DNA of 64,000 bases, taken from contig CM022665.1 in the NCBI GenBank assembly GCA_012295275.1, positions 37,820,001 through 37,884,000 of the forward strand. Direction: 5' to 3'. Position 1 is the stretch's first letter; every line of letters starts with the position of its first letter. The notes below the pieces were generated by a model that made no database searches, was not told the origin of the DNA, and worked only from the letters and a program-made list of their open reading frames with translations. Shown here one piece after another: positions 15,841-62,638 of this stretch. This stretch comes from Chrysomallon squamiferum (lineage: Eukaryota > Animalia > Mollusca). A program made the position numbers and the translations under genes.

Positions 15841-17078
15841 CAGTGGTTCTCAGCGGGTGCGCCCGGAGACGTATTTAGCTGTGCCCCACGAAATTCTAGG
15901 ATCTAGGTAGATATTTGCGATGATAAAAAAATTGATTATATTAAGAGCGGAAAGATATCCAGTAAGAAATAGCTGGTTACCCGGAAGAAAATGTTATACA
16001 CGTTGTAAACTCGTGATGAGCTGATCAGCTAGCGCGGCTGCTGAAGGCTGCACAGTAGTTTACCAGTGACAGTATGAGTGATAGGGTGATAAATAGCCAA
16101 AGTTTTCTTGTGACACATATTCCTATCACTGTCACAGTCACTACCATCTAAAACTTTAAAACTTTATGGAATTTTAGCCTATTATAGTGTTACATTTGTT
16201 AAAAGCAAACGATTGATAAAAGTTTTCCCTCACTGCAGAATGCACACCATTAAAAATATAGCCTTTGAACAGTTTTTTGACATTTTAACAGTCCATTGCT
16301 TTGTATTTCATATTATAATATTTTTGAAGAAATTGCCAAGACAGGCTCATACTTCTCATCAGCACGAAATAGATGATGAATAAAGGTATATACTCACACA
16401 AAGGCAGTAACTCTAAATATATCAGTGAACATCTCTCACACAAGGGCGGTAACTCTAAATATACCGGTGAACATCTCTCACACAAGGGCGGTAACTCTAA
16501 ATATACCTGTGAACATCTCTCACAGAAAGGCGGTACTCTAAATAAATCAGTGAACATCTCACACAAGGGCGGTAACTCTAAATATATCAGTGAACATCTC
16601 TCACACAAGGGCGGTAACTCTAAATATATCAGTGAACATCTCTCATACAAGGGCGGTAACTATAAATATACCGGTGAACATCTCTCACACAAGGGCGGTA
16701 ACTCTAAATATACCGGTGAACATCTCTCACATAAGGGCGGTAACTCTAAATATATCAGTGAACATCTCTCACACAAGGGCGATAACTCTAAATATATCAG
16801 TGAACATCTCTCACAGAAGAAAAACAAACGGTACAGATTCCAGACGAGAACCGTCCATACACGAAATGATGAAGAATCTGACATAAGTATAGACAACGAG
16901 GATAGACAACCTCAGCAGCCTGCTCCACAACCGATTCAGCCGCAATATCCGTCTTTCAGTTATTTCTGTATTTTTTTGCATTTTGTATCATAGTTCTTAG
17001 CATTTTGTGTGTAGTGTGCCCGTAGTTTTTTGTAAGGATTCGAGTGTTCCCCGACTTCAAAAAGTTTGAGAACCACTG
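15841..17078 (+). mobile_element. hAT (Charlie-like) non-autonomous element, family B, full length, with internal 42-bp minisatellite
   Basis: TIRs CAGTGGTTCTCA / TGAGAACCACTG. Colinear with 58442-59283. Right flank GACTAGAA fits the Charlie-type NNCTAGAN target preference. No transposase motifs seen. Confidence 0.9.
16392..16815. repeat. 42-bp minisatellite, about 10 copies
   Basis: Unit AAGGGCGGTAACTCTAAATATATCAGTGAACATCTCTCACAC repeated head-to-tail with no spacers. Confidence 0.95.
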
Positions 17079-29344: not shown

Positions 29345-32300
29345 CTAGTGAAAATAAAAATATATTAAACAAAGAAAAGAAAGGTGTATACTAATTATTC
29401 ATATGTCGAAGTGTAAGAAGACTTTTTTTTATTTATAAAGAAATTATTAATTAAAAAAAATCATTAAAAACGACCTCTGGAACTTCCACCCTTCTTGTAT
29501 TCCTGATGTCTCCAACAAGACACCTGATAAAATAGACATTAAAATGTAATAAAATCTTCAGATAACAATGGTAATAGTCGTTATCAAAAAAAAAAAAAAA
29601 AATGAATTTAAATTTATTTATTTTACAGAACAACTCATTGAACATTTGATTTATTAATGATAAAAAAATAGATGAAAATTTCATAGAATATTTTCTATGG
29701 GTAAATTATACAACTCCATTTATAATTTACTGAACAATACAAGAAAAATTATTATTTCTACTGAAGTATAATTATTATTCTTATATTATCTAATTATATA
29801 AATATGAAAATGAACTATGTGTAATATACCTGTCCATTAAAGAGCGTTCTTAGGTATGGTTCGTAACTCAAAACAAGTCTTTCAAGATGTGCATTTTCTA
29901 TGTTTTCCACACTCCTAAAACAAAATTAATATAAAAAAAAAAAAATTAAATGTTAATATTAAACAATACATCAAAAAACCTATTAAATATGTTATATGGA
30001 ATGCATAACCATTTTCAACCTGTATTCACAAAAACTGAACGGAAATCAATCTACAGAGATATTTAAACCTTTGGACATAACAATAAAGGTACTGTGGCCT
30101 TAATATTTATTGGGTATCCAAGAACTTTTAAGTGATCACACCTTCAGAACTGAAATTAATCCAACAATATTGTTTTCAATTTAGCTGGATTTTGCAGAAG
30201 AAATGGAAGAATCTATATACATTTAAATAAAAGGACTGACTAAGTGTACAGTTAGCATGAACAAAATATCTATACTTGACATAAAAACATACTGAATACT
30301 TACTTTATTTGTTTAAGATTTTTAATTAGTTCGGTGAAATTAAAATCTGTCCCCAAACTAGAATTTGCTGCATTAACATCTGAGTCATTATTTACAGAAA
30401 TTTTGTGTTCTACTGTACTTATGAATGGACCACAACTCTCTTTCAACTGATCGCATTCAACATGAGTTTGGTCAATTTCTGGAAGTTCATCCACTTCATT
30501 TGACGGTTCAGGTACAGGACAAATCTCTGTCAGCCTTTTCTTCCAGCGATCACATTTTTTGAAAAATATTTCTGGTAACTTTTCATCATCCTCTTCTGAA
30601 ATTACATTCTGCTCATCATTTAAAGTGGAACTGTTATAGCAACAGTCTAGTGATTTCTTTATCTCTTTAAATTCTGATATGTCTGGCAAACTTTGAGGTT
30701 CCTGGAAATAGTTTGCATCAGTGTGTTTTTTTTTCTTCGGAACATTTTTCTGGTGACCCTGGAAAACATGGAATTTTTTTTCTTAGACTTTTCTTCTGAC
30801 CAGTTCATACCACTCTTTTCTGTCCAACAAATTCCTGCAGTTTTGAAAAACATGGAATGCTGAGACTTTTTTTACATCACTAGATGCTTTTGTTCTTCTT
30901 TAAAGAACTGTTATAGCAGTTTTCATCTCTTTAAATTCTGAACCGGCTTTTCCTGGAAATAGTTTGCATCAGTGTGTTTTTAACATTTTCTTGACAAGAA
31001 TCTTTTGTTCTTTCGACTCTGAACTTAAAAACATCTGTCTGCTTTTTTCATCACTAGACCTTCTGACCAGTTCATAGATATCCGTCTTGACAAGAATCTG
31101 ACTCTGAACTTTTATTCTCTAAATGCAGTTTTGTTGTTTTTTTTTAGAAAACATTGTGATTGTAGGTTCTGAGCTACTTGAAGTACCTGCAGAATTGTCA
31201 GAAATGCCCTTATCTTGTTCTGTAGTATTTAAAGTGGAACTGTTATAGCAACAGTCTAGTGATTTCTTTATCTCTTTAAATTCTGATATGTCTGGCAAAC
31301 TTTGAGGTTCCTGGAAATAGTTTGCATCAGTGTGTTTTTTAACATTTTCTGGTGACCCTGGAATGTAATTTTTGTTCTTTCGGACTCTACCACCTTTTGC
31401 CAACATACCTGCTGAAAAACATGGAATGTTAGACTTTTTTTCATCACTAGACTTTTCTTCTGACCAGTTCATAGAACCGCTTTGTCCGTCTTGACAAGAA
31501 TCTGACTCTGAACTTAAAACATCTGTCTGCTTGCTCCCACAATATATCTGACTTTTATTCTCTAAGTGCAGTTTTGTTGTTTTTTTAGAAAACATTGTGA
31601 TTGTAGGTTCTGAGCTACTTGAAGTACCTGCAGAATTGTCAGAAATGCCCTTATCTTGTTCTGTAGTATTTAAAGTGGAACTGTTATAGCAACAGTCTAG
31701 TGATTTCTTTATCTCTTTAAATTCTGATATGTCTGGCAAACTTTGAGGTTCCTGGAAATAGTTTGCATCAGTGTGTTTTTTAACATTTTCTGGTGACCCT
31801 GGAATGTAATTTTTGTTCTTTCGGACTCTACCACCTTTTGCCAACATACCTGCTGAAAAACATGGAATGTTAGACTTTTTTTCATCACTAGACTTTTCTT
31901 CTGACCAGTTCATAGAACCGCTTTGTCCGTCTTGACAAGAATCTGACTCTGAACTTAAAACATCTGTCTGCTTGCTCCCACAATATATCTGACTTTTATT
32001 CTCTAAGTGCAGTTTTGTTGTTTTTTTAGAAAACATTGTGATTGTAGGTTCTGAGCTACTTGAAGTACCTGCAGAATTGTTAGAAATGCCCTTATCTTGT
32101 TCTGTAGTATTTAATTCTGTGTGGATACCATCTGAAAAATCATGTCTATTTGGAGAGAAAAAGCCCCACCTACTTTCTGCACTGCTTGAATGACCTTTGT
32201 CTTCATCTGATACCGATGTTTCTGAATTACAATATTCAGTCCGATATTCATTTTTAGGACTTCTGGAACGGGAAAAGCACTTTTCTTCTGTTTTAGTAAC

Positions 32301-35300
32301 ATCTGATTTGGCTTCATTTAATGCGTTCATTTTGAGAACAGTAAACTGTTGATTCTGACTTTCAGAATAATCTGACTGCATTGAATAGTCATGCTCAGTG
32401 TTACAAACATTCAGTTTTTTATCCAGTGTTTGCTGAATTGGCTTACAATGTTCCCCATTAGATTTTGACACAGTTGGTCCCATTTTTCTCTTTTTAGTTT
32501 TGGATAGTTTAGGTCCACTCTTTTTTATTCTAAAAATTAAAAATATTAATAATAATCCATTAACATTTTTAAGTGTCTTTTTTAAATAAATACTATGCTA
32601 ACTGAAATAAAATTCCTCCTTAATGATTCTAAAATCTGAATTTTCACAAAACAAAACTTTACAATAATTAATGGTATTTGTTTCATAATAATGAATTTTA
32701 ATTTTTTTTTTGGGGGGGGTACGTTAAACATGTAATTACATTGCAAAATATTTTAACTGACTATAACTCAGTGGTATGCAGATTTGAATGAATATTTATC
32801 ATATTTTAATACAAACAAAACATTTGTTACCAATATGGCTGCATACAAGGAGAAAAAGGTATGTGCTTACAATACTTATAAATAGCATACATGCTTTTAA
32901 GTGTTCTTTTCCGTTTGGTACTTAAAGAATCTTCTGGTGCTGAAGTCGATGTACTTTCTATTGCTAAAGACTCTGTGGCTGCAGCAGCTTCATTACTGTT
33001 AAAACTTGATGTAGAAGGAAGATTAGGATCAGGAATATTAGGTGAAGTCTGCACAGGTGCCTTCTGGAAGTAATTACTAATGCTGACCCTCTGACTCTGC
33101 TGTGGCAGTAACTGCAAAAACAGCACCACCATTTAAATAAATACATAAAATATTACAGGAAATACAAATAATTCCTGAAAAGTTCAGAAAATTGCTGAAC
33201 TGAAAGTAATGTGGCTGAGTTGGTGACTGTCCAAGGAAAACCTAGACATCCACAGAGCCAATTAAGTGTCCATAGAAAGAGCAAACTGTAATATTAAGGG
33301 CATGCTTGTTTGCTGATTAGGCGATAACAGTGTAACTGAAATGACTTTTGCACCCAAATTTGCTCAGTTTTGGAGCAAATGTTCATAGTGTTTTGTAAGT
33401 GAAATTAAAAGACAGTGTTTAGATCTGTGTATGTGGATTTATTCAACCACATAAGTGCCACTGTGTTCACCTTTCAGGATGTGTATGCATGTGATATATT
33501 CCAGTCATATGTGAAATTTAATCTTGTGCTCAATGTGCACCTATTGAAAAACATTACAAACTATTGTTCCAATCCAGAATATATATATATATTTAATTTA
33601 ACACTGAATAAATGAATGCATTATCTTCACCTCAGTATTTATCAATATTTACTGGGCATCAAACATAAACATTTTGTGTAATGATTCTTTCTGAGAGAAA
33701 ATAAATAAGCAGTTATAAATGATTTTTTTTTATACACTGATTTTCAGTTATATATATATTACCTGGTTCATGTTTTGCTGTGATAAACTCTCCAGTGGGT
33801 AAGTGTAAACAACCAGTTTCTCACTGTGAAGAGTCAGGTTTCTGTACCTTGGTGTAGCTAAAACAAACAAAATAATAAAAAAATTATATATTAAAATATT
33901 CTAGAAAATCACTAATCTCAAATGCTGTTCTTTCAAATGTTGAAATACTGAAAAAATAATTTTTATTTTTTTAATGTTATCTTACATTTGATTATTTTAG
34001 AATGATTGATATCTAAACTCTCTCTTTGTAGTTAATCCTTTAAAATATATCTTTGGTGATACAAAGAAATGTTGTACAAATATATTATGTATATTTCAAA
34101 ATTATGTTTCATTAGCTTTTTGCCATTCTTTGTTAATTAGTAATGAAGTATAATAGTTAAAGAGTACACTTAAAAAATATCTGGGTGCTACCATTTTTTT
34201 TTGGTTGCAATATCATCATATACAGGGAAGAGAGATTTGCTCTAGTTTATTTCAGTCATGTCAGAAGAGATACAGTCGGTCTGTCTGGTACATAGTCATA
34301 TTACAATTCCAGTTGTGAAAGTGAAAAACAGTGACATTTATGTGCTTTGTAAAAGTATTATTTTGTCATAATTTGTTATTAATGATAGGCTGCTCAAGCC
34401 AAATAAACTAATACATTTTGAGTCCAAATAGAGACACTAAAACACCTTTATCATGGCATTATCAACAGCTGATAATTCATGTTTCTGATTTGTTTGCCCC
34501 TAAAATATGTATGCACTTGAATTTTTATGTATTTAAGTAACTGTCTAAAAGAATGCAATAAAATTACTTTCAGTATCATCACTAAAACTTTCAAAAATGT
34601 TAGTATCAGTTATTACAAGTATGAATTGTTATTTCAGAACAGTGAACCCTTAATTTGTTTGTTTACCATTTCCTTCATTGGAACTGTGTTTTTGAGACAA
34701 ATTAGATGGAAGTAAACAAAATTGATTGTCTTCTTTTTGCTTGAAAGAATAGCCAATACGAACCGTACTGCCTACAAAATAAATAAAATTAAAACATAAG
34801 TAAAATTTTTTTAAAAATCCATCCATGGAAAGTGATAAAAAAAAATTTCATCATTGCACGATCAATTTTACTCATAATGTCAGAAGAATCAACATCTATA
34901 AAATGTACCTTAATGTTGGGCAATGAAATTTATAAAGCAACAAATTCTATTCCTGAAAAAGGTATTTTTTATAGCATTATTACAGTCCCAGTGATACATA
35001 TCAAAGTTTATAACAAATGACTTTAACGATCAATGCATTCAATCAGTTTTCTTTTTCAAAAAAAGTAAAAATAAAAATAATAACAATAAATAAATCAAAT
35101 CAAATCAAGTTTAAAAAAAAAAAAAAATCTATTTAAATTTACCAGTTCTACTTTTTAGTTTACAACAGTTACATGAAACTTTTTATTTATTTATATATTT
35201 TTTCATTTTGGTGCATTCTTTTTAATGATTTGGTTTCCACAGATAATTTATTTATTGTTATTATTATTACTTATTTATTTATTTTATGCTTCTTTACATA

Positions 35301-36091
35301 AATCATTTTGTACTAAACTGCATTTTTATTTCAGAAGACAGCCATTCTACACACCTGTTAGTATTTCGCAGCTCGAACATTTTGCTGCATTTGAATCTTT
35401 GTTTTGTAGCGAAACTCGTTCTTGAATAACACCTTTCAGTAACTTTAAAATTTCCTATAAAATGCCAAAAGTCTTACTATTAGTATTACCCAACAAAAAA
35501 ACATGTCCATTGTCTCTACAGACAAATTATGGTACATATCTGAAATATTAGCACAAAAACTATATTATTTATTTTCATGGGTAAAAATATTTAGTTCTGA
35601 TATTTCTATCATTAATTGTCATATATTTTATGTGACATCAACTATATTACAATAGAGAAGAAATATGTATACATAACAGAAGTAATTTATGATCACATTA
35701 ATAATTAGGATTAACTGTTGTTTTAACAGCTTATTAGTTTCCTGTATAAACAACAAATATTTAACAACAAGTTTACTGAAACAGCTGGAGGGAAGATCAA
35801 CTCTTTCCAATGACATAAGAGGAAACCATAACTTCATTCGTTATTCATTATGCATTAGCTGCATTGGATTTTTCATATGCACCCTCCCACAGAAAAGAAT
35901 ACATGTATATTGATAAATGAGTCTTAGGCGACTGGCTGGAAAGGGAAAACGGCCTACTGTCAGGCTTGTGGTGTAATATGTGAGCCAGTAGCTATTACCT
36001 GGACATGCCTATCTTGAAACCATGATGTTGATGATGCGGATGGAACTTCAATGGGGTGAATTTCTACTTGTAACGCTCTCCATCTTGACAC
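28297..36091 (-). CDS. SLX4IP: SLX4-interacting protein homolog with internal tandem repeat and extra C-terminal domain; first exon unresolved; frameshifted in the assembly at ~30720-31145
   Basis: Minus-strand exons: 36091-35999 (ALQVEIHPIEVPSASSTSWFQD), 35454-35355 (EILKLLKGVIQERV), 34771-34667, 33857-33763 (LHSEKLVV), 33111-32891 (ISNYF...KRKRTLKS), 32529-30304, 29914-29830, 29523-29475, 28993-28893, 28413-28297. The N-terminal blocks parallel recalled human SLX4IP (AVLVDLH..TSWF, EVCLLLKETIDSRV, VSDYF, RRNALKEIVK). The gene sits head-to-head with MKKS, as in human. Confidence 0.8.
30620..32113 (-). repeat. Exonic 441-bp (147-aa) tandem repeat: two near-perfect copies plus a garbled segment
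   Basis: CTGAGCTACTTGAAGTACCTGCAG occurs at 31169, 31610 and 32051 (period 441). 30720-31140 is a deleted mosaic of the same unit. Confidence 0.95.
33390..33575. repeat. Dispersed repeat, related in inverted orientation to ~50755-50910
   Basis: Shared blocks GTATGTGGATTTATTCAAC, CAGTCATATGTGAAA, GTGCTCAA and GAAAAACATTACAAA, reverse-complemented in the ACP7 intron. Confidence 0.65.
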
Positions 36092-36280
36092 CTGAAACAA
36101 TTCTTACTCTTAAATCAAATGTCAAGTACAAATGAGTATGAAATATTTCTAATGATGGGGTTTAATAGATAAAATTTTAATCAGTCAATTTATAACTTAA
36201 TGATTGTTTGAAATTAATATTATACCAAGTGCTGTGATCTAATTTGGGAAAGTAAAAAAACGCATCGGTTTAAAATCTAT

Positions 36281-36372
36281 TATTTTTTTCAAATTTTTGT
36301 CGTTGCATTGCGTCAACAGAAATCCGTTATTTTTTTCAAATTTGTGTCGTTGCACTTCGTCAACAGAAATCC
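36281..36372. repeat. Two-copy ~48-bp tandem duplication
   Basis: TTTTTTCAAATTT.TGTCGTTGCA....GTCAACAGAAATCC occurs twice. Confidence 0.85.
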
Positions 36373-36449: not shown

Positions 36450-37100
36450 AATAGCACATTCACAAACCCTGACATATAACGTTTTTACAATTTTCTTTTT
36501 TGGCATATTTGAACTGTTTTAACGTCCCGCTTTATAAGAATGAGTTATCTCCCTTAATAGATAGAGGGAGTGAAAATTGTTTATTTGCAACTGAAGAAAC
36601 ATTTATCAAATACGCAAATATTTTTAAAATTTACTGGCTTGTTTGTTTAATAAATAAACCTTTAATAAAAAGTGTAGTTTAAAAAAAATTGTTGTTGTTC
36701 AAATAGTAGTTTTAAACTATTTGCTGTTTTTAAAAACGACTGATAAAGGTAAATCCTATTCCACTCATGAAAAAATGAATAACACTTTTGTAAAATATCC
36801 GACCAATCACGTTTGTAGCTACAGCTGCAAGTACGGTACAAGGTTATATTTCATCAACTGAATAACAAGTGCTGTTAGAGGTCTCCGACCAAAAAGTATT
36901 TTGCATAGAGTGTTTGGTGTAAGTAAATTTAATTCGTAAAGATGAATTCATAACATTGTGATGCAGAAAGTCAGGTCTAAAGGCTAGTAAGTAGTAATAA
37001 ACTGAATAAACATATGATCATGATATTACAACTTACAGTGGCAGCAATTACGTGATCACGGTGATGTATAGTCGACTTACTGATAATCCTATATTGATGA
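36450..37100. promoter_or_regulatory. Putative bidirectional promoter region for SLX4IP (-) and the uMKKS/MKKS unit (+)
   Basis: Lies between divergent genes and is locally richer in CpG. CCAAT at ~36803. Plus-strand GTAAGT donors at ~36919 and ~36986 are candidates for the end of a non-coding first exon. Position is inferred only. Confidence 0.4.
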
Positions 37101-39970
37101 CAATAAATTAAAACGTTTGCATTAATTTAAGTATATTATTGTCAGTCTGCATGAAGTATAGTAATATCATAATGCTTAATGATTATGATTTAGAACTAGA
37201 ATATAATAAGTTCATAAAACTCAATGATAATAAGGTCATGACTCAAGTCACTCATGGTTACAGATATTCAGAAAGTATAGAATTAAAGTATTTATTTATT
37301 TATTTATTTAACAGCAATGATAAAAATTAGTGAAGCAATTTAATTTTTGAATATTTGAGAAATATGTTGGTTTATGTTCTTGGCAAGTCATGAATGTTTT
37401 AACCTTCTGATTTACAGTTACTATAGACTAGGTTACGTAGGTACTCCATAGTGATTTTCTGTTGGCGAAAACCACGATTGACTCCTAACTACAACTGTAG
37501 ATCTTTTTATTCTGATTCCACTGGGGAAGAAAACTAAAAGAAATAAAAAGAAAAGAAAAAAACTGAAGTTATCAGTGAAATAATTTCAAAGTTATATTTT
37601 TAAAGTATTTAATTTTTTGGTGCTGTTTTCAACAATTCAGGGCCCATTCTGATGCAAGATTCACTCTGACAAAGCTTATTTCATAATATGTTATACTATG
37701 TGTTACAAATATGCATTCAAATTTATTATTATTATTTTTTTTTATTTTTTGTACCTCTTCAAAATACATTTCCACTGATATATGAAGCCTAGGGCTGGTA
37801 AAAATTATTCATTTTCGCTAGGCCATTCACAATGTAAAAAAGTCAAATCTTTTAAAATTCACAACACTGCTTTTACTTGTACTACAAATGTAGCTTTTAT
37901 ACTGTAATAGGGCTGGCTTTTCAGTCTGTCAAAACTTGTACAATGTCAGTAATGTAATCAAACTGTACCATCACAAAATAATAAACAGTTTGGATTTCAG
38001 GCATTGTTAACCTGGTATTAGTTTAACTTAAACTCCAATCCACTATACATTTACTAGAAATTCATAAATCCAAAACAAAAGAATAAGTCATATAAAGATT
38101 TAAGATCTTTTATTTTATAAACTAAAAGTTAAAGAAAAACTAATTTTATATTTGAAACAAAAAGAATACAGTGTTAAAAACTTAACTGTTTGTTTTCAGT
38201 AGTCAGGAATTATTTTATACTGCTAGTATTATGAATATATTTTCAAAGTGAAAGTTCACAGATCCCACAATGTTTATCACTGATTGAACAGACAAATGAA
38301 CCACATTTCATCAGATTTTGACACAAGAATTAACAGATTAACAGTGTTTCATCAGACTTTACAATTCTTTTTTCATTGACTTCTTGTCAAACTTTGACAA
38401 CTTTCTGTTTGATGAACAGGTTTGTGTGGTGACTTCTAATCAGATTCTGACAATTGTCTGTTCTATGACATCTTGACAGACTCTGATGAAGAAATATATA
38501 CAAAAACCAAATGAAATATGTTTTGAAGTGTACACTATTGTGAAGAAAAGGTGTGTTCACCTCCCTTAAACATAAAGACCATTGTCTTCATATAATATGT
38601 CAAGAATTAACTGACAACTTGTTTATTACAACAACAAAAAAAGAAGAAAAAAAAACTACACAGCTGGACCAAGCCCTGTTTTGTAAAGCCAAAGGTCACT
38701 GATAAATTTTTTTTTTAGTTCTCATGAAAATACAATCTTGTTTTCAGAGTTTGGTGTCATCTAGCTGATACCCAGATTAATATCTGCAGAATCACATGAT
38801 GAAAACAAGTTGTTTGCACACTAATTAAACATAGTTTCATTTCAGTACTAATTGGAGTAAAAAGATGAAATACATTAGAAAATGTGAAATGTTAATCATT
38901 TGGAGAGGGGGGTCAACATTTTTTTCTCTGACAAGTTGCAGTTTTCGTAAGCATTATTGGTTGTAAAGGCTATATTAGTATATAATAATAAAGATGACTT
39001 GTACCATTTCCTCATGAGAGCATGGCTAAAAAAATGTCAAATGTAACATGTGACTCAATAAGGAAATTTGTCCTGAGTTATTATTTATTGTACATGTACT
39101 ACATGTAGTAAATTTTGAAGACTGTTTCATACATAATAAGCTTAAAGTTAAATTTCCAATATTTATTTGCAAGGCAGTGCCACAACAGCAGAAAAAATCA
39201 AATAAAAAGCTAAATGCAACTGAATAAATGATCATAAATGATAAGACTGTTTTTAGATCACAATATCCATTCAAAAACTAAAGTCACAAGACTGGATTTT
39301 TCACTTTTTGGGCCATCAGAATACACTGCTAAAACATTTCACAGATTTTGCGCAGATAGCCTCCAGTTATTGCTAACATTGTACCAAGAAGTAATGTAGA
39401 AGATTTATTAACCAGTCACACAATGTGTACATAACTGACTCCAGTATCATTTCATCCCATTTTTAATCACTGAAAAGAATTATCATTTTGATGAAACAAA
39501 GACATCAAACTGTTTGGCTGAATTTGTTTATAGGATGAAAGGTTGAAGAATTAACCCTGTGATTGTAAACAAAGTCATTTTTTCTACACACAGTCATAGA
39601 TTCTTAACAAACTGCGATTAAACACTTTCACAATACAAGGTAACATTCATGCAACAGACAGAAAGATATGACTTCAGATATTTCATTTATGCAGTATTAA
39701 TTGAGATAGTACCTCAAACAGAAGAGAAAAAAATCAAATGTTCCAAAGTCAGTAAAAACAGTTCAATATAATATGGCAAACCAAAAATACAGTTAATTGT
39801 TTCATGATTAGGTAGAGTGAAACAATTTCACATCAGATAACTTAACTAGATGTTTAAATGATGACATAGTTAGTCTTCCTTCCTAAATATTTAAATGTGA
39901 CTGTGCAGTCAGTAGTATATTGTATTTAAAATGTTTTTATTTAATTTTTGCAGATTGTTATGAGCTCAAA

Positions 39971-40159
39971 ATGAATGCTTTTCAATCTTTGTGGAGTCGC
40001 TATAAAGTTCTGATTGTTATGATTCCATCCATGGTTTTAATCCATTATGGATGGCTTCAGTTACAGTATCATCCTCCTGTTGAAGATGCACCATCAAAAC
40101 CTGTTAAATTGTTTGGCATAACATTCAAGACAGCAGAGGAACCAGCATCTAAGAACTAA
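39971..40159 (+). CDS. 62-aa microprotein, uMKKS1-like (upstream ORF of MKKS)
   Basis: MNAFQSLWSRYKVLIVMIPSMVLIHYGWLQLQYHPP... aligns with recalled human uMKKS1 MSLRNLWRDYKVLVVMVPLVGLIHLGWYRIKSSP (LW..YKVL.VM.P...LIH.GW). Acceptor TTTTTGCAG ends at 39953, A at -3, donor GTAAGT at 40198. Confidence 0.85.
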   Translation: MNAFQSLWSRYKVLIVMIPSMVLIHYGWLQLQYHPPVEDAPSKPVKLFGITFKTAEEPASKN

Positions 40160-40556
40160 CTTAAATTTTAACCTTTTTGTAAATATTTGAAATAATTGTA
40201 AGTATTTGTATTTAAATGTTTAGAATATGATGTTAAAACATGTTAAAAAGTGAAACTGGTATTTAAAAAAGCAATATGTAAATATGTATTTATAAATCAT
40301 AAATGCCAGTATTATTGAATGTTTGTAACCTGCAATAGATTAAGATAATTTATATAGAATTTAATATTATCACCCCCATCCAAACAAAATAAAATATATA
40401 TATATTGTTTAGTAACAATCACTTAAATTTCAGATTATCAAAATTTAAAGTTACTTTTTGTTTACATTGTTAAATGTTGTTGCACATTTTATATATCTGT
40501 TCTGTTGGATTGTTATGATTCTGATTTTTTTTTTTTTTTTTTTTTTTTTAGAAAAA

Positions 40557-40745
40557 ATGTTTAGGAAAATAAAGTTTATCTATCAGCAATCAGCAGCATG
40601 GGTATTCCACAATAAATTGGCAGGATTTGTGGGGATTTTTACAGCAGTGTATTTGGCTACCATTCCTTTCAATCGTCCAAAATTGGAATTGTCGGCAGAG
40701 AGAGCAGAACTTATTAAAAAAGCCAGAGATAAAATAAAAGACTGA
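40557..40745 (+). CDS. 62-aa microprotein, uMKKS2-like (second upstream ORF of MKKS)
   Basis: MFRKIKFIYQQSAAWVFHNKLAGFVGIFTAVYLATIPFNRPKLELSAERAELIKKARDKIKD has a basic N-terminus, one hydrophobic helix and a charged tail. AWVFHN...GIFTAVYLAT parallels recalled human uMKKS2 SWIRKN...ISFIGVHLGT. It has its own poly-T/AG acceptor at 40551 and the same position as uMKKS2 between uMKKS1 and MKKS. Confidence 0.7.
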   Translation: MFRKIKFIYQQSAAWVFHNKLAGFVGIFTAVYLATIPFNRPKLELSAERAELIKKARDKIKD

Positions 40746-40995
40746 AATTTCTAGTATATTTGCTTATTAAGGTTATATAAATTTTGTTTATTTAGAGAAT
40801 ATATTTTATTAGTATCATAAATTAAAATGAACATAAAGATTAATAATATTTAATATTTGTTCTTCAGATGTTTTAAGTGTAATGCTGTTGCATTAAATTA
40901 ATAACAGTATTACAAAAACTTTACCAGTATTTCTTTGCTTTTTGACTTTTATGACATTTTGACTTTTAATGTTGTTTTTGCAGTTTTAACCAGAA

Positions 40996-43690
40996 ATGTC
41001 ACGTCTTTTATCACAAAATATCAGAGGACCAAGCAAACTTCATTTGTGTCACCTGGATGATGCTAAAACACGGGCCTGTCTGATTCAGTTTGGTAATCTC
41101 ATAGGTTCATGTCGAGGTCCCAATGGAAAGGTCAAAATGATCCAAAACAAAGTGGGTGGCCATTTGACCCTTACATCATCATCATCCAGGCTTTTGGCAT
41201 CCATGTCGTTTACTCATCCAATTCTGCAAATAATAGTTGGTAGCACACAAAATCATTTAGCAAATTATAAAGATGGTGGACTGCTGGTGTGTCATTTTTG
41301 TCTTCTTTTGTTAGAGAGTTCTATTGTACAGACTTGGAATCGGCATCTTGTTGTTGAAGTGTATGAGAAATGTTTGGCAAAGATTGAAGAATATTTGAGT
41401 TCTTCAGACTGCACTTGTCAGTTTGACATAAGTTTTTCAAGCATTGAGGAGATGATGTCATTCTTGCATTGCATGCTGATGTCGAAACCATTGTGTTGTT
41501 TAAATGGTAGCAGACTTGATCATTTATCTAAGACAATTCTAAAATCATTTTTAAATTCAGTTCCAGAGAATACAGACAGAACATTTTTTTCTGACAGGAT
41601 GTATATTCAGTGCATTTCGAACTGTGATGTGCTTGACACCAGATCTGAGAAAGGGATTTTGATGTCTTGTCCTGAGTTGTCTTCTGTTTTTGAACAGAAT
41701 GTTGAACTGAAGAAATGTGTCAATGTAGCAGGGTTTTCAAGAACCAAAGTAGTTTTGGTGAATGTCTCTATGTCTGGAGATGCAGAAGAGTTGATGAATG
41801 TCAAATATGAAGCTGATACAGATAATAACATGGAGGAATTTTTGTTGAGTGCGATGCTGAAAATGTGTGGCAGGTTAGTGGAATGTGGTGTTGGAATGGT
41901 ATTGTCACAGAAGGTTATGCATCCCCAAATAAAGCTGTTTCTAAAACTTAAAGGTGTTTTCTTTATAGACAGGATTGGAGCACATATGATGCCCTATCTT
42001 AGGGACCTCACAGGTTTGTTTTACTTGTTCATTATTAACATTGATTAAATTATTAAAACTTTTAAAAGTTGTTTTGTACTGTTACCTTAAAATGTACATC
42101 AGTAATGGCTGTATGAAATCTCTGACTGAAATATAAACACAACAAAAACACTTTAATGCAAATAGTTTTGAATTATATATATAATTATGTTGCTTCTGTT
42201 TGTTTTTTTTTTTTTTTTTTTTTTTAAATGAAATTGATACAGCATATGAATTATACAGCATTTTTTAAAAACAATGTTCATTTTAAAATATTTATTCAGA
42301 CCTGAAATTTGAAAAAGTGAAATTTCATCTTACTCTTTAAATACTGTTGTATTTTAACAGGTGCAACTCCCATTAGTTCTGCATTAATCTCAGATTTTGT
42401 ATCATCCTCATTTGGCTGGTTGGATGATGCTGTTCACTGTGTGATCAATGAAAAAAGTTACGTTCATCTTAGAAATACAGACAGTCCTGTTGTGTCTCTT
42501 ATTCTGTGCAGTCCATTGGAAGAAGTTTGTAGCGAGCTTCAGGTACATTAATTTGTAGTGGTCAAATACTAATTATAGTAATCAATAATTTATGTGTATG
42601 TTTTTAAAACTATTAAGCACTTTTACCTATGATGACTTTATAATAATTAAAATTATGAGAAATAATTAGATGTCCTAATTAAAATACATTAATATTGTTT
42701 TTCCATGTGATCTTAGCAGTATTATTTTTGCTGTGCTAATTAATATATTATTATTATTATATGTTGGTTTGTCCTTTCTGTTCTTAAAGGTACTTAGAGA
42801 TTATTTATCTATAAATTTTTAATAAACTTCTGTTTCCAGTGTTTGTGCTCATCATCTTTGATGACTTTAAAGAGGCTTGTTAACAACAGTTCAGTTTTGT
42901 GTGGAGGAGGATGTTGGCAGAGTCACCTTGCAGCTTTCTTACGATCCCAGGTACAATTGACAGATATTATTTATGAAATAAATACACAAAATATCTCTAC
43001 TTTTTCAAATAACTTTAGTGTGGGCTTTTTCCTGTCAGAATGTTTTGATCTTAAATTACGTTTCTCAATTAACATTTAATGTTATGTCTGAGAGATCATA
43101 TTTTATTTTATTGCTTTAGAATTTATTTCTTGATACTGCATAATCTCAAATGAAGTAAAACAATTTCAAGACTATTTTTATGCTAATGCACCAAACAATG
43201 CATTTGTGTTGGGTTTTTCTTGCATGGATTCAGAAAAAATACATTTCACTTTTTATTTCTTCAGAAAGATGACATCTCAAAAGAAATGGATGTTCCAGAA
43301 CTACAGGTTTCAGAAATTGTTGAAAATTTTGCCAGATGCTTGGAGAAATCTGCTACAAGTCTAACCCAGGATCAGAAAATACACAAGTTGGATAATAATT
43401 ATCACCATCTATGGAAGACATCTCATGGTGGGACATTGGAAAGCAGAAGAAATGTTCTTACGTGTTCCTGTGGTCTCTTGTCAACTGACCAGTCTGATGA
43501 CCTCAAATATTTGGGCCATGCCACTTCTGAAAAGTCTGACTGCAACTCAAAGCTTTTGTCCAGCCTAAATGTAGAAAAAAGTCCACAAATTTTAGACTGT
43601 CTGGCTACTGTAATGAGTGCTTTACAAACAGCTGTTTATACATCAAACAGCATTTTAATGACACATCAGTTTATTCAGGATCAAAGTTAA
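40996..43690 (+). CDS. MKKS: McKusick-Kaufman/Bardet-Biedl syndrome 6 chaperonin-like protein
   Basis: Exons 40996-42013, 42361-42542, 42840-42950 and 43265-43690. MSRL start, GPNGKVKMIQNKVGGHLTLTSSSSRLL..THPILQII..QNH, SQKVMHPQIK..FIDRIG, LCGGGCWQSHLAAFLR and CSCGL match the MKKS group II chaperonin-like family. The layout of one large plus three small coding exons is as in vertebrates. Confidence 0.95.
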
Positions 43691-46600
43691 TCTCTGCCTT
43701 CAGAATGTAATTTAGACATTTGAAAAATTATAAAACAACCTCCCCACACAAAAAAACCAGCAAATTAACAATACTGTCCATATTGTTGGAATTGAGTGCA
43801 CTGTATGTTTTATAAACAAAATTTAGTTGAAGTGAATTTATATATTTGCATTAAAATTTGAAAATATTCTAGACATGAAAGGTAATTAGCATCTACTTCA
43901 ATTAAAATCAGTTTACAGTTTTGATAAATAAACTAATCAGAATATGTGGTTTAAACTGTGTAAATTGTTTTCATCATAAATGTAATTATTCAAAACAATT
44001 TTCATATTTTTCAAAGGGACATTTAACACTTTTGTCCATAACTGCAAGATTTGTGGGGTTTTTTTTGTTGTTCTTCTTCTGTTCAAGCAGTTTATAATAA
44101 TTATAATATTTGGAATTTAAAATTTAAAAGCACATAAAGATGTATTTAGTTTGGATGAATGCAAGTTTGTGAAACAATCGAATTGGTAAATTGTATATTT
44201 AAGAACCATTTACAACATGTTTTTGCCTGAATGGATAATTTTTGCTTTCCTTATGCCATTTTGATACTTAATGCTTTAATATTTAAATATTTTATCATTT
44301 TTATGTTCATTTATATCTATTTTGAAACACGATTTGGTTCTTAATATATATTAAGAAAGGCACTGCCTCTTGTTCAAAAGGGGAAACTGTTACAAATGTC
44401 ACTTCTTTTCAGCATATTTTAAAAATACATTTAACACTTAAATTCACTTTAATAATTGCTAACCACTGCTGGTATGAAATGAAATTTTAGTGTTTGTGTC
44501 ATCGGTGTGTATTAAAGCTGAGTATTTCTTCTGCTTCGGTTTTTGTTTTGTTGTTGTTAAAATGATTATTACAAAAATCAGTATTCAAAATAAGTTATTA
44601 ACACAATATACATACTAACATGTGTTGCTATTCCTAAATAACTGCATGCAGAAAAACAAATATTGCATTAAGTAACTGGTTTACTTTCATCCAAAGGAAT
44701 AATCCCATAGGATGAAAACAATATAATTTCAAGGATAAAATAAGAGTGAAAAAAGTACACAAATCGGGTAAATTTAAGGAATTGTGAATTCATTGTTTTA
44801 TTTTGTCAAAAAGAAAAAGCAGCTGCATACAATGTATTTGAAATGCATTATGGCACAACTAGAAATGAAAGATTTGAAATACATTGTAAATATAAAATGC
44901 TGTGGAGATGAAACATATTTCAGAACATGAAATTTAGTACAGGTCAACCATCACTAATCCGGCACAAATTCTGACTACTCATTTCAAATTTCCTCAGTTA
45001 CCTCACTAAACTATCTTTAAAGGAGCTTCTTGCTGCATGAATATTGTTGTTATCATTTTATTTTTCCATTTATTGTTACAGTCTGTTAATCCTAACCATG
45101 GTTTCAATGAATAAAGGAAGTGCTTCTCGTATAAAGAAGAACCACCACACATTGTCTGTAAAAGATAAACTTGTATAAAAAAACTAAAAAAACTTGACAG
45201 TGGTATCAAAAGTAGGACAAAGTGACGAGTTGTTCAAATACATTTATTTGGATCTAACCACTCTGGCATCCTGCAGATCCCAAATGGTGCTGGATAAATG
45301 ATGGAAGACCTGTACTTTTAAAAATTATAATGAAAATTCTTAAAAATATATATGATGTGAGACAAAAGTGAACAAGTAAATATTACTTATAAAACCTACA
45401 TACACGTCTGAAACATATACTGAAATAGTTAAATACCCTTCAGATTATCTGAACAAAATTTATATCCATTAAGAAAAGCCAAACACCACAATTGTTTACA
45501 CACAGATGACCATCACCAGGAAAGGTTGGGTTTTATTTTTTTATTTTCTTTCATAAACATAAACCTTAAGATTGTCTTTTTCTATAGCATCAACCACAAT
45601 ATTTCATACATATACCGGGATAAATTTCAGTTCACATATCATAGATACTGTGTATCACACTATATTGCACAGATGGTTTCAGTTTCCATACCATACCCCA
45701 GGTCACAATTCCTGCAACCCAAAGATTAGTTTTCAGTTAATAAAAAATATATTGTATACATTTTTAATTTGCATAGCAAACCATGTAACATTTATAAACA
45801 ATTTATGTAACAAAACAGAGTTAAGTTTAAAATTGCATATCAAACCATGTAAGTGTTTTGTACATGCTAGACCATGTAACAATATTTTGACACAAAGTTT
45901 CAATTCAAATAATAAACCATAAGACAAAATCATAATGGCTGCCTGCTGTATGTATTCCAAAAAGGATAATCTAACTCTTGCACAAGAGTACAGGCTTCAA
46001 AGAATACCTTTTCAAATCAAATTAGTCAAAAGCATTAATTAAGCTTTTTAAGCATAAAATTAAAATAAAGCACTAAATAAAAGATTTCAGAACGAATGTT
46101 AGTATAACAAGTAATTAAGTACATGATTTATGCCAAGTAATTAACTGGCCATTTACTGGCAATGAAATTTCAATTTATTTTCTTATTATGCAAAAAACTA
46201 AACACAGTTCAAAAACGTATTATTATTTTAAAATTTGTTTGTTTAACAGTTTCTTCCATTATTTTTTTTTTTTATGACCAATCATAAGTAACAACAAGAC
46301 TTACAATAACTATGCAAAAGCATTCACAATTTTTCACAATAAAGGTATAATTTAAAATGACAGAACTGCTTAATAAACCAGTTATTCTCCATTTCAAGCA
46401 TCTAATAATACTAAATATGTGTTACTCAATGTAATAAAATTCAAACATGCTGGATGAATGTTTTGGAATGGTTCGTTTCTACAACTTGTAAGTACTTGTA
46501 AAAAAATATAAAACTTAAAAATATATATAAATGTTAACATTACATACATCACTCACATTTCACACAAGAACAACTAGATATAAAAATCTGGATAAATTTG

Positions 46601-58441: not shown

Positions 58442-59283
58442 CAGTGGTTCTCAAAGGGTGTGCCCCACGAAATTCTAGGATCAAGGTAGATATTTGTGAT
58501 GATAAAAAATTGATTATGTTAAGAGCGGAAAGATATCCAGTAAGAAATAGCCGGTTATACACGTTGTAAACTCGTTCGAAACGAATTTTGGCTGATGAGC
58601 AAGCGCGGCTACTCAAGGCTGCGCAGTAGTTCACCAGTGACAGTATGAATGATTGGGTGTGCAAATGTGATAAATAGCCAAAGTTTTCTTGTGGCACATA
58701 TTCCTATGACTGTCACAGTCACTACCCATCTAAAACTTTAATACTTTATGGAATTTTAGCGTTACATTATAGTTTTACATTTGTTAAAAGCAAACGATTG
58801 ATAAAATATTCCCTCACTGCACAATATATCAGTGAACATCTCTCACACAAGGGCGATAAATAAATTTATCAGTGAACATCTCTCACAAAAGGGCGGTAAC
58901 TCTAAATATATCAGTGAACATATCTCACATAAGGGCGGTAACTTTAAATATAACTGAACATCTCTCACACAAGGGCGATAACTCTAAATATACCGGTGAA
59001 CATCTCTCACACAAGGGCGGTAACTCTAAATATATCGGTGAACATCTCTCAGAGAAGAAAAACAAACGATGCTGATTCCAGACGAGAACCGATTATACGC
59101 GAAATGATGAAGAATCTGACATAGATGTAGACAATGAGTATAGACAACCTCGGCAGCCTGTTCCGCAACCGATTCAGCTGCAATATTTCAGTTATTTCTG
59201 GGTGTTTTTTTTACATTTTGCATCACATTTCTTAGCATTTTGTGTGTAGTGTGCCCCGACTTCAAAAAGTTTGAGGACCACTG
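58442..59283 (+). mobile_element. hAT (Charlie-like) non-autonomous element, family B, second full copy
   Basis: TIRs CAGTGGTTCTCAAA / TTTGAGGACCACTG. Colinear with 15841-17078, with a shorter 42-bp array (~58822-59051, about 5 units). Confidence 0.9.
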
Positions 59284-60112: not shown

Positions 60113-62638
60113 TTATTCCGACATCGTTTCTTTCGAAGGCACCTTTAATTTTAAAGTCAATTTTGACTTCTTCACTGCACTGTCTGACCCACTACTCTCA
60201 CCACTGGGAGAATATATATGTAATGGAGTCAAATTCATTCTACTGCCCCTGTTCTCCTCAGGGTCAGACTTATCGAATTCAAATGGATCAAAATCTTTGG
60301 GACTTCTTCCAGAATGCTTATGCTTATGTTTTGCCTTTAAGTCCTTATGCTTATCTATAGATTTATCCCATATTTTCTCTTTACTTCCTGAGGTCTTGTC
60401 CTGTGCCATCTGAAGCTTTATACGAGGCTGCAGTTTGATTTTCAACTTGATTCCTTCAGCTGGATCAGCTATGGTGCTGGTTATGTCAGCCACTGCAGGT
60501 GTTTCAGTTTCCAATTCTGCTTCTTTCTCAGGAACTTTTTCTTTGCTATCTGCAGGTAGATGTAATACCCTAGCATGCCTAGGTTTGAATTCACTGTCAC
60601 TGTCACTGTCTTCACGGTAAAAACCTTCTTGACGAGACAGCCTCCGACGTCTCATAATTGTCTCTTCACCCAGTTTTCTCTGCTCTTCGTAACGTCGTTT
60701 TTGTTGTTCCTGCTCAAGCCTCTGTCTCTCTTCCTCCTCCTTGCGAATTCTTTCTGCTTCCAGTCTTTCAAGTTCTGCTAGACGCTTCTGTCTTTCTTGC
60801 TCCTCTGAAAAAAAAAAATCAAAATGTTAAATATTATGAAAATTAACAGTTCTTACATAATAAAACATGGTATGTTTTTATAAAATAAATATTATCTTTT
60901 AATATATATATATATTAATGTCTAATTGTAATTAAGAATAAAATACAGTAAACCATCAATGCTTTTTAATAATCATAGTATTCTCATATGAATTACTGGA
61001 GAATGGATTGTTTAACGTATTAAATTTTCCAACAGGAATTTATAATTCTGAAAGATGATATCAAATAAATATAAATATTCATGATTACAAAAGTTAATGG
61101 CTAATTCACCTAGAAATACTCTTTGTTGCTCTTTGATCAGTCTCTGCTGTTCTTCTTCTAGCAGTCTTGCTTGTTCTTCGTCTTCCCAGTTCTGTGCTCT
61201 GCCCTCTTCATCCAAGATATTCTCCTCTTTATCATCCTCCTCTTCTTCTGGATCATATTCATAATCTCCTTCAACATCATCATCATCATCTTGTTCTATA
61301 TCATCCTCTTCACTCAGTTCTTGATCAGACTGCAGTGCTTTAAGTTTCCTTTGTTCCTCTCTTGCTCGTTTTTCTGCTGCCTTTTTTTCCTGTTTAGCTA
61401 GTCTCTTTTGCTCTAGTGCTGCCTTTCTCCTCTCTTCTTCAGCTTTTCTCTTTTCTTCAGCCATCTTTCTGCGCTGCTCCTGCTTTCGAAGATGCTCCTC
61501 CTTCTTTCTACGATGTTCTTCAATTTTCCTTTGCATTATTTCTTCTTGCTGCCGTCTCAGCTTTTCTTCCATTTCTCTTCTTTTTCTTTCTTCCTCTTTT
61601 CGTTTCATTTCTTCTTCTTGTCTCCTGATTTGTTCTAGCCTCTCCTGTTCCTGTCTCAGTTTTTCCTGTCTTTCTCTTTCTCTTCTTTCTTTTTCTTCCC
61701 TTTCCCTTCTTTCCTCATCCAATTTCTGTTGGATCCTGACCTGCTCCATAAAATCTTCAAGCAGCTGCTCTCCAGACTTTGAACCATCAGGATCAGAGAT
61801 GCCAAAGGTTTCTTTTTTTTTCAAAGGTTTGAACACTCGAGACACATCCATAATTGGTAATTTCAATGACAAACTGTCTCCAAAATGTTCATAAAGTTCC
61901 TGGTAGAAATTGCGTTGGCATTTTCCAATAAGTTCTAACTGATCTTCTAGGATAGCAGCACTGTTTATTTGATCACTTTCTAACAAAACATCAACAAATT
62001 CCTCACTTGGCACAAACTGTGACTTGAAGTTTTCAATTCTTCCTTTGACTAACAGTTCTGCTGCCAGCTATTTAAAAAATAAAAAACTGAAGTAGTATAT
62101 CATAGAAGACTTTGATTAGAGAAAAAGAAAAAGAAAAAAGATCAGAATTCTGAAGTTTTGCTAAATGAAAACAAATAAAGAAAACTGAAAACACAAATCT
62201 GAAACAAAAATATGAAATTTATCATTCAAAATGAGAAACTCCCCCCAGAAATGACCTACAAATACCCAAGTTCATCATTTAAGGTATTTTATGCTATTTT
62301 TTTCAAAAAGTCACTGCCACATTAAAATTTGTTTAACTGATACACCTAATTTTTATTTGTCATTTTCCACTTGACAATCATTTTGAAATAAATAAAACAT
62401 TAACAAGGACAAGGTATTAGCTTTCAAAATATATTTTTGGATTTCAAATGAAGTTAAAACTAATGAGAATAATTTTTAAAAAAAATGTGTTTGTGTGTAA
62501 TAAACTTACAAGCAAGGCTCCATGTACTTTGTAGGCATCTGCTTTTGCCACAGAATTTGGTAATGAATTGTCTTCCATGACAGAATTCAAACGTGGAATA
62601 ATGACTGATAGATGTGGGACTATTACATCTTCTACAAC
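60113..62638 (-). CDS. TAF6L: TAF6-like SAGA subunit, 3' part (upstream exons beyond the window) with long charged C-terminal extension
   Basis: Exons 62638-62510 (VVEDVIVPHLSVIIPRLNSVMEDNSLPNSVAKADAYKVHGALL), 62067-61110 (LAAELL...FYQELYEHFGDSL) and 60804-60113. These match recalled TAF6L (VERVLYPHLS..LQAVLDDYSVSNAQVKADGHKVYGAIL; YRELYAFFGDSL). Confidence 0.85.

What the first reader, a model, noticed from the sequence alone, without database searches (positions are those of the whole stretch)
39954..43690. Invertebrate uMKKS1-uMKKS2-MKKS polycistronic unit encoding two microproteins
Seen: two 62-codon ORFs (39971-40159, 40557-40745), each with A at -3 and one hydrophobic helix, lie in tandem immediately before the MKKS start at 40996. 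Known: the human MKKS leader encodes the uORF microproteins uMKKS1 and uMKKS2, reported as mitochondrial and as repressing MKKS translation, with alternative polyadenylation giving uORF-only mRNAs. ORF1 shares LW..YKVL.VM.P...LIH.GW with recalled uMKKS1; ORF2 matches uMKKS2 weakly but in position and layout. Inference: these are ancient, selected membrane microproteins in an operon-like arrangement with a ciliary chaperonin that predates the protostome-deuterostome split. Standard annotation would likely miss them.
Basis: partly seen in the sequence, partly recalled or inferred. Interest (0 to 1): 0.92.

Follow-up and report, generated by a model that had tools for sequence, protein, structure and literature searches.

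The report
Snail MKKS message carries two microproteins
In this animal, likely a snail, spliced RNA joins two tiny genes to the front of the cilia-chaperone gene MKKS; the first is a clear relative of a human mitochondrial microprotein and the second likely matches its human partner, so this likely three-protein message probably predates the split between molluscs and vertebrates.

Summary
Real and mostly as described. Both 62-codon ORFs exist. ORF1 belongs to the human uMKKS1/LOC128706665 family: a vertebrate-only HMM scores it 54 bits against at most 4.3 for the window's other 514 ORFs, and Drosophila members exist. RNA contigs from 3 runs of one study splice the ORF1 exon to the ORF2 exon to MKKS; the one DNA-like run does not. 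MKKS is an intact 578-aa CDS, 70% identical to a Gigantopelta aegis protein. So each ORF has its own exon, and they lie 43 and 38 nt apart on the modelled mRNA. ORF2 looks coding (119 of 20,000 shuffles) and sits where uMKKS2 sits, but no tool showed sequence homology. Translation, mitochondrial location, repression of MKKS and uORF-only mRNAs are inferred from human work. A functional 'operon' link to MKKS is unsupported. Ten paper searches found no invertebrate report, but one key figure and supplement were unreadable. This scan noted the layout before on other DNA (4 notes). Verdict: new member of a known locus, extended to protostomes.

The parts
36829..36918 (+). candidate non-coding first exon (tentative; start estimated)
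   Evidence: RNA contigs hold 274/335/324 letters before 40552 while exon 2 is 244 nt, so 30-91 nt come from further upstream. A GTAAGT donor at 36919 follows a CCAAT box at 36803, with no ATG in the 95 nt before it; 6 other donor-like sites scored.
39954..40197 (+). exon 2 (244 nt) holding the mini-uORF and ORF1
   Evidence: Acceptor CAG and donor GTAAGT. Its last 30 nt (40168-40197) are the loose end joined to 40552 in 3 of 3 RNA runs laid; the 5' boundary is inferred from the acceptor.
39960..39974 (+). 4-codon uORF whose stop overlaps the ORF1 start (ATGA), G at -3
   Evidence: sequence; role inferred
39971..40159 (+). ORF1, 62 aa, uMKKS1 / LOC128706665 / micro-MKKS63 family microprotein; predicted short N-terminal helix, then one membrane helix (about residues 12-33) ending in the family's invariant H-x-x-W
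40198..40551 (+). intron 2 (354 nt, GT-AG)
   Evidence: loose end at 40552 equals 40168-40197; splice sites
40552..40771 (+). exon 3 (220 nt), almost filled by ORF2
   Evidence: covered by one RNA contig in each of 3 runs
40557..40745 (+). ORF2, 62 aa, predicted single-pass membrane microprotein with a basic, acid-free N-terminus; likely positional counterpart of uMKKS2
   Evidence: coding signal; no listed difference among 4 runs across it; no homologue found
40772..40983 (+). intron 3 (212 nt, GT-AG) between ORF2 and MKKS
   Evidence: joint skipping 212 nt in 3 of 3 RNA runs, absent in run X5
40996..43690 (+). MKKS/BBS6 chaperonin-like CDS, 578 aa in 4 coding exons (40996-42013, 42361-42542, 42840-42950, 43265-43690)
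   Evidence: Pfam Cpn60_TCP1; best hits named MKKS-like; spliced model 70% identical over 580 columns to G. aegis P0001. First junction seen in RNA, the last two inferred from GT-AG and the homologue.
43691..44530 (+). likely 3' UTR ending after ATTAAA at 44511

Best explanation
This is a spliced locus in which an exon for a uMKKS1-family microprotein and an exon for a second small ORF are joined in front of an intact MKKS gene, likely forming one three-protein mRNA inherited from the last common ancestor of molluscs and vertebrates. Shown: the exon chain, the ORF1 family and the intact MKKS CDS. Inferred mechanism: ribosomes scan from the cap and are shared out by leaky scanning and reinitiation. 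The first AUG on the known exons opens a 4-codon uORF whose stop overlaps the ORF1 start, so ribosomes that use it would bypass ORF1 and restart downstream, while those that skip it make ORF1. ORF2 starts 43 nt after the ORF1 stop and MKKS 38 nt after the ORF2 stop. MKKS is the 11th AUG from exon 2, so it would be made in small amounts and ORF1 in the largest. Both small stops lie within 55 nt of the next junction (38, 26 nt), the layout proposed to keep polycistronic mRNAs safe from nonsense-mediated decay. The microproteins would be single-pass mitochondrial membrane proteins that support respiration (most likely complex IV assembly or stability for ORF1), working independently of the chaperonin; the linkage likely persists through a shared promoter plus translational damping of MKKS, not a shared pathway.
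For: Exon chain: (3 of 3 RNA runs laid, one contig each, GT-AG joint absent from X5). ORF1 family: vertebrate-only HMM of 29 rows, 54 bits, next 4.3; BLASTP E 7e-14 to 1e-9 against 7 of 7 named LOC128706665 homologues tested; Atlas 0.94 to the LOC128706665 cluster, 0.95 to an arthropod cluster; 102 hits. Same exon logic in human: uMKKS1 and uMKKS2 are each one genomic block, 6.7 kb apart on chr20 but about 17 nt apart on the transcript (PMC10032668 supplement rows); in a fish contig the ORF also follows an acceptor-like site by about 18 nt. ORF2 coding signal. AUG map. Human function: mitochondrial location of both uORF products (PMC7066179 passage), repression of MKKS (PMC11837024; PMC7530721), respiration defect on knockout and dominance over MKKS protein (PMC13577902), predicted link to complex IV (10.1101/2024.10.01.615885). 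Lower Atlas neighbours of ORF1 (0.82-0.83, leads only) include small mitochondrial membrane proteins such as UQCC5, UQCC6 and SMIM20.
Against: The RNA evidence is short-read contigs from one study: it shows each junction, not a single molecule, and only the last 30 nt of the ORF1 exon were seen directly. ORF2 has no tool-detected homologue; its by-eye match to human uMKKS2 scores about 23 by hand (BLOSUM62), not significant; its coding-model score is exceeded by 3 of 76 control windows. No translation or localisation data exist for this animal. The only related locus retrieved (fish, 1,490 nt) ends before uMKKS2 or MKKS, so ancestry rests on two lineages here. [quoted passage not shown] Earlier scan notes claim other invertebrates pair uMKKS1 with another gene (untested).
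Confidence: 0.72

Rival explanations
1. Bicistronic only: ORF1 is the true uMKKS1 orthologue, but ORF2 is a lineage-specific or non-coding uORF that merely sits where uMKKS2 sits.
For: No homologue of ORF2 in Pfam, PDB or the Atlas (recognition 2044, below the 2300 mark); 62 aa against 50 aa in human; hydrophobic ORFs are common in this AT-rich window; a stop-free 62-codon frame arises in 1,050 of 20,000 shuffles.
Against: ORF2 fills 189 of 220 nt of its own exon, starts 5 nt after the acceptor with A at -3, has coding-like GC (0.36 vs 0.20; first position highest) and its own frame scores best; by eye W, N, L, F, V, L, T, R fall in register with human uMKKS2 without gaps.
Confidence: 0.18
2. 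Separate messages: the microproteins are made mainly from short, early-polyadenylated RNAs and MKKS from its own isoform; the three-ORF chain is a minor or assembled form.
For: Human isoforms that lack MKKS exist (3 of 7, PMC13577902). AATAAA/ATTAAA occur at 40388, 40821 and 40892. Contigs drop rare forms and give no molecule-level proof.
Against: Each run gave a single contig through the chain, with no other joint or loose end at the MKKS acceptor. Such hexamers occur at 4.4 per kb in non-coding DNA here, so they are chance-level.
Confidence: 0.07
3. The peptides matter only as ribosome-stalling regulators of MKKS translation, not as mitochondrial proteins.
For: The human MKKS uORF represses a reporter partly in a sequence-dependent way (PMC7530721).
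Against: Conservation centres on the N-terminal membrane helix, not the C-terminus; the human peptide is abundant, mitochondrial and needed for respiration (PMC13577902); the family persists in Drosophila, which from memory lacks MKKS.
Confidence: 0.03

Closest known systems
Human MKKS polycistronic locus: uMKKS1 (63 aa, Q9HB66, LOC128706665, micro-MKKS63), uMKKS2 (50 aa, V9GZ13), uMKKS0, MKKS/BBS6 (PMC11837024, PMC13577902 passages; Akimoto 2013 not held, seen only through reviews)
   Same: Order microprotein 1, microprotein 2, MKKS; ORF1 homologous to uMKKS1; an intron between the two small ORFs; each small ORF in one exon; a further tiny uORF in front.
   Different: Likely gastropod, whereas the review read calls the peptides conserved across mammals. 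A 212-nt intron separates ORF2 from MKKS (human: same exon, recalled). ORF2 is 62 aa with no significant match. No uORF-only RNA seen. The 4-codon uORF overlaps the ORF1 start; none lies in the fish exon.
Drosophila sloth1-sloth2 (SMIM4/UQCC5 and C12orf73/UQCC6) bicistronic mRNA (PMC9681215, passages)
   Same: Two single-pass microproteins on one ancient message; leaky scanning supported there by reporter tests; mitochondrial respiratory-chain role there.
   Different: No sequence match shown (UQCC5/UQCC6 clusters only 0.82-0.83); no third, large cytosolic ORF; jawed vertebrates split that pair but kept the MKKS chain.
Other mitochondrial uORF microproteins with an unrelated main ORF (MIEF1 uORF, SLC35A4 uORF; PMC7530721, PMC7066179 passages)
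   Same: uORF product is a stable protein and also damps the main ORF.
   Different: One uORF protein each; unrelated sequences.

Membership tests
uMKKS1 / LOC128706665 | Significant sequence homology to named members | tested here: met
   54 bits, E=3e-16; 7 of 7 named homologues tested
uMKKS1 / LOC128706665 | About 60-70 aa, YKV-like N-terminus, one membrane helix with H-x-x-W | tested here: met
   H..W in 105 of 105 and YKV in 99 of 105 stored members of 90 aa or less; model helix 12-33, mean pLDDT 72
uMKKS1 / LOC128706665 | Lies in an exon spliced upstream of MKKS | tested here: met
   contig level, 3 runs of one study
uMKKS1 / LOC128706665 | Translated, mitochondrial, represses MKKS translation | not testable with these tools
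   human data only
uMKKS1 / LOC128706665 | Alternative polyadenylation gives uORF-only mRNAs | tested here: inconclusive
   hexamers present at chance density; contigs drop rare forms
uMKKS2 (V9GZ13) | Position between uMKKS1 and MKKS, at the start of the next exon | tested here: met
   human coordinates
uMKKS2 (V9GZ13) | Significant sequence homology | tested here: inconclusive
   No uMKKS2 sequence was available to the tools; Pfam, PDB, Atlas blank; by eye 8 of 28 ungapped identities to the sequence, hand score about 23, not significant
uMKKS2 (V9GZ13) | Small single-pass protein under coding constraint | tested here: inconclusive
   coding-like composition and ORF length; no orthologue for dN/dS
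uMKKS2 (V9GZ13) | Translated and mitochondrial | not testable with these tools
   basic, acid-free N-terminus fits but proves nothing
MKKS/BBS6 | Group II chaperonin-like domain, about 570-590 aa, closest to MKKS-named proteins | tested here: met
   names are automatic annotations, no vertebrate MKKS was aligned
MKKS/BBS6 | Degenerate ATP-binding motif | tested here: met
   KDGGLL stands where CCT subunits carry GDGTT (CCT motif recalled; lack of the motif in BBS6 per PMC10356136 passage)
MKKS/BBS6 | Acts with BBS10, BBS12 and CCT in BBSome assembly | not testable with these tools
   PMC10356136 passages

The most novel reading that the evidence does not exclude
The MKKS locus is one of the oldest polycistronic mRNAs still intact in humans: a bilaterian-age unit in which two small mitochondrial membrane proteins, possibly ancient tandem paralogues, ride ahead of a ciliary chaperonin behind a promoter shared head-to-head with SLX4IP, with a start-overlapping mini-uORF and decay-proof junction spacing dividing ribosomes among three ORFs; uMKKS1 is a pan-bilaterian respiratory-chain factor whose fly member makes its function genetically testable.
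Probability: 0.35. Interest if true: 0.75.

Novelty: new member of a known kind. Interest (0 to 1): 0.55.

Why it matters
The human microprotein is the main product of a disease locus and affects respiration (PMC13577902), yet has no known mechanism and was described as mammalian. A mollusc orthologue on the same spliced chain would date the peptide and its linkage to MKKS to the bilaterian ancestor, mark the invariant residues to mutate (H25, W28), and point to Drosophila members for genetics. It is also a rare case of an animal polycistronic mRNA kept since the mollusc-vertebrate split. It extends a known locus; it is not a new kind of system.

Tried and rejected
Single-sequence word search with ORF1 found nothing; the full HMMER search then found 9 hits, of which 1 (P0010, a repeat protein) was dropped as spurious. 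Pfam: 0 of 9 family members hit. PDB by sequence and Foldseek on the ORF1 model: no match. ORF1-ORF2 paralogy: no BLASTP alignment, hhalign 0.1%, ORF2 no better than its shuffles against three family HMMs; rejected at the level of this species. ORF1+ORF2 complex prediction: no answer, score 0.02, alignment not used; no evidence either way. Metagenome scan: 71 stretches, 1 locus, a short fish contig. Family tree of 23 rows, 67 columns: vertebrate and non-vertebrate-like rows separate, 12 of 20 inner branches open; too short to order events. The five single-base differences in MKKS among runs (4 silent, 1 C>Y) are too few for selection tests. SLX4IP identity of the upstream minus-strand gene: single exons gave no meaningful Pfam or PDB hit; the paper search on its pairing with MKKS listed nothing relevant. 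No own genome is held. Absence of RNA cover in intron 3 is not used as evidence against short isoforms. A paper stating that Drosophila lacks MKKS was not found in clear form.
Full report
Observation. Two ATG-initiated 62-codon ORFs lie at 39971-40159 and 40557-40745, ahead of a chaperonin-like ORF starting at 40996. Both starts have A at -3. One hydrophobic stretch each is real but unremarkable: 33 of 102 similar-sized window ORFs are as hydrophobic.

The main gene and the organism. The long ORF hits Pfam Cpn60_TCP1; 8 homologues were found, and of the 5 with names those naming a function say MKKS-like. Four coding exons with GT-AG ends give an intact 578-aa protein, 70% identical over 580 columns to Gigantopelta aegis, 39% to Patella, 33% to Pinctada (one search used wrong boundaries and is superseded). 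The animal is therefore likely a gastropod.

RNA. Five runs hold the stretch, 4 on record as RNA, in 2 studies; 4 were laid on 40550-42195. Each of the 3 RNA runs laid (one study) gave one contig covering the ORF2 exon, skipping a 212-nt GT-AG intron and continuing through the first MKKS exon into the next. Upstream of 40552 the loose letters equal window 40168-40197, the end of the ORF1 exon. The contigs hold 274, 335 and 324 letters before 40552, enough for the whole 244-nt ORF1 exon plus 30-91 nt of an earlier exon; two contig lengths would end near an ATTAAA at 44511. Run X5 is colinear with the genome, and its three indels fall in introns.

ORF1. A search of 1.84 billion representatives gave 9 hits, 8 credible. 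A profile of these reached 102 proteins, including 'LOC128706665 homolog' entries of alligator, frogs, a bird and a mustelid, fish 'PNAS-117' entries and two Drosophila proteins. To limit circularity an HMM of 29 named vertebrate rows was run on all 515 window ORFs of 20 aa or more: ORF1 scored 54.2 bits, the next 4.3. Pairwise E-values to 7 named homologues are 7e-14 to 1e-9. The Atlas independently ranks an arthropod cluster (0.95) and two chordate clusters (0.94, one named LOC128706665) first. H25 and W28 are invariant in 40 rows. Membership is met on sequence, shape and position.

ORF2. It fills 189 of its exon's 220 nt; 119 of 20,000 shuffles give such an ATG-ORF (1,050 a stop-free frame); its own frame scores 1.1 against -5.8 and -11.2, above 73 of 76 control windows; GC is 0.36 against 0.20 in the introns. 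No homologue was found, and it does not match the ORF1 family. By eye against human uMKKS2 8 of 28 ungapped columns are identical; the hand score of about 23 is not significant. Position agrees: human uMKKS1 and uMKKS2 are single blocks 6.7 kb apart on the chromosome but adjacent on the transcript (PMC10032668 supplement rows). I put orthology at about 0.7.

Mechanism (inferred). On the modelled mRNA there are 10 AUGs from exon 2 to the MKKS start. The first opens a 4-codon uORF whose stop overlaps the ORF1 AUG; one inside ORF1 (40047) has a strong context and a 24-codon frame. Leaky scanning would give mostly ORF1, the mini-uORF route and reinitiation would feed ORF2 and, weakly, MKKS. This fits human findings: the uORFs repress MKKS (PMC11837024, PMC7530721, passages), and the microprotein far outweighs MKKS protein, localises to mitochondria and is needed for full respiration (PMC13577902, passages). 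The stops lie 38 and 26 nt before the next junctions, inside the 55-nt rule that PMC3951408 (passages) proposes for polycistronic mRNAs; whether mollusc decay follows that rule is unknown. A complex IV link is a computational prediction for the human protein; outer-membrane proximity data argue otherwise. Nothing ties the peptides to chaperonin function; human expression is decoupled (r=0.15).

What is known. Akimoto 2013 is not held. Searches listed no paper that I saw reporting an invertebrate uMKKS or an invertebrate three-ORF MKKS mRNA. PMC7530721 gives the taxonomic range of the MKKS uORF in a figure and a supplement that I could not see; these may already list Lophotrochozoa. Four earlier notes of this scan describe the same layout in other genomes; they are unchecked and not counted as support.

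Verdict. Observation confirmed; interpretation partly supported. It works like, and for ORF1 is a member of, the human MKKS polycistronic locus. New member of a known kind with a likely much older origin than described; interest 0.55.

Noticed in passing
window 33763-33857, 35355-35454, about 35993-36085, minus strand (further exons towards 32830): Short coding-like exons of a gene lying head-to-head with the MKKS unit resemble, from memory, the N-terminal exons of SLX4IP, the human head-to-head neighbour of MKKS (recalled). Single exons gave no meaningful Pfam or PDB hit. If true, the synteny block is larger than the finding.
   Followed up: partly
window 39960-39974: 4-codon uORF whose stop overlaps the ORF1 start; none lies before the ATG in the fish exon of L001.
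   Followed up: partly
P0091, P0102: Drosophila members of the uMKKS1 family, annotated as uncharacterised; by eye the fly protein shares 11 of 27 columns (one gap) with human uMKKS2, hinting that uMKKS1 and uMKKS2 are old paralogues. The snail ORF2 does not match the family profile.
   Followed up: partly
window 30303-32597, minus strand: Two long open frames (159 and 491 aa), partly inside a 441-nt tandem repeat at 31103-32114 (99% identical copies); no Pfam family above its cut-off. May be the large last exon of the upstream gene or an assembly duplication.
   Followed up: no
window 16393-16815 and 58823-59051: The same 42-nt tandem repeat unit occurs at two distant places, likely a mobile minisatellite.
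   Followed up: no
window 36280-36372: 47-nt direct repeat with the highest local CpG count, in the likely shared promoter region.
   Followed up: no
window 60116-62067, minus strand: Long open frames (237 and 351 aa) with charged coiled-coil-like sequence; a further gene, not examined.
   Followed up: no
P0061: A clownfish member of the uMKKS1 family is labelled 'Small integral membrane protein 26' in UniRef, likely a mis-annotation.
   Followed up: no
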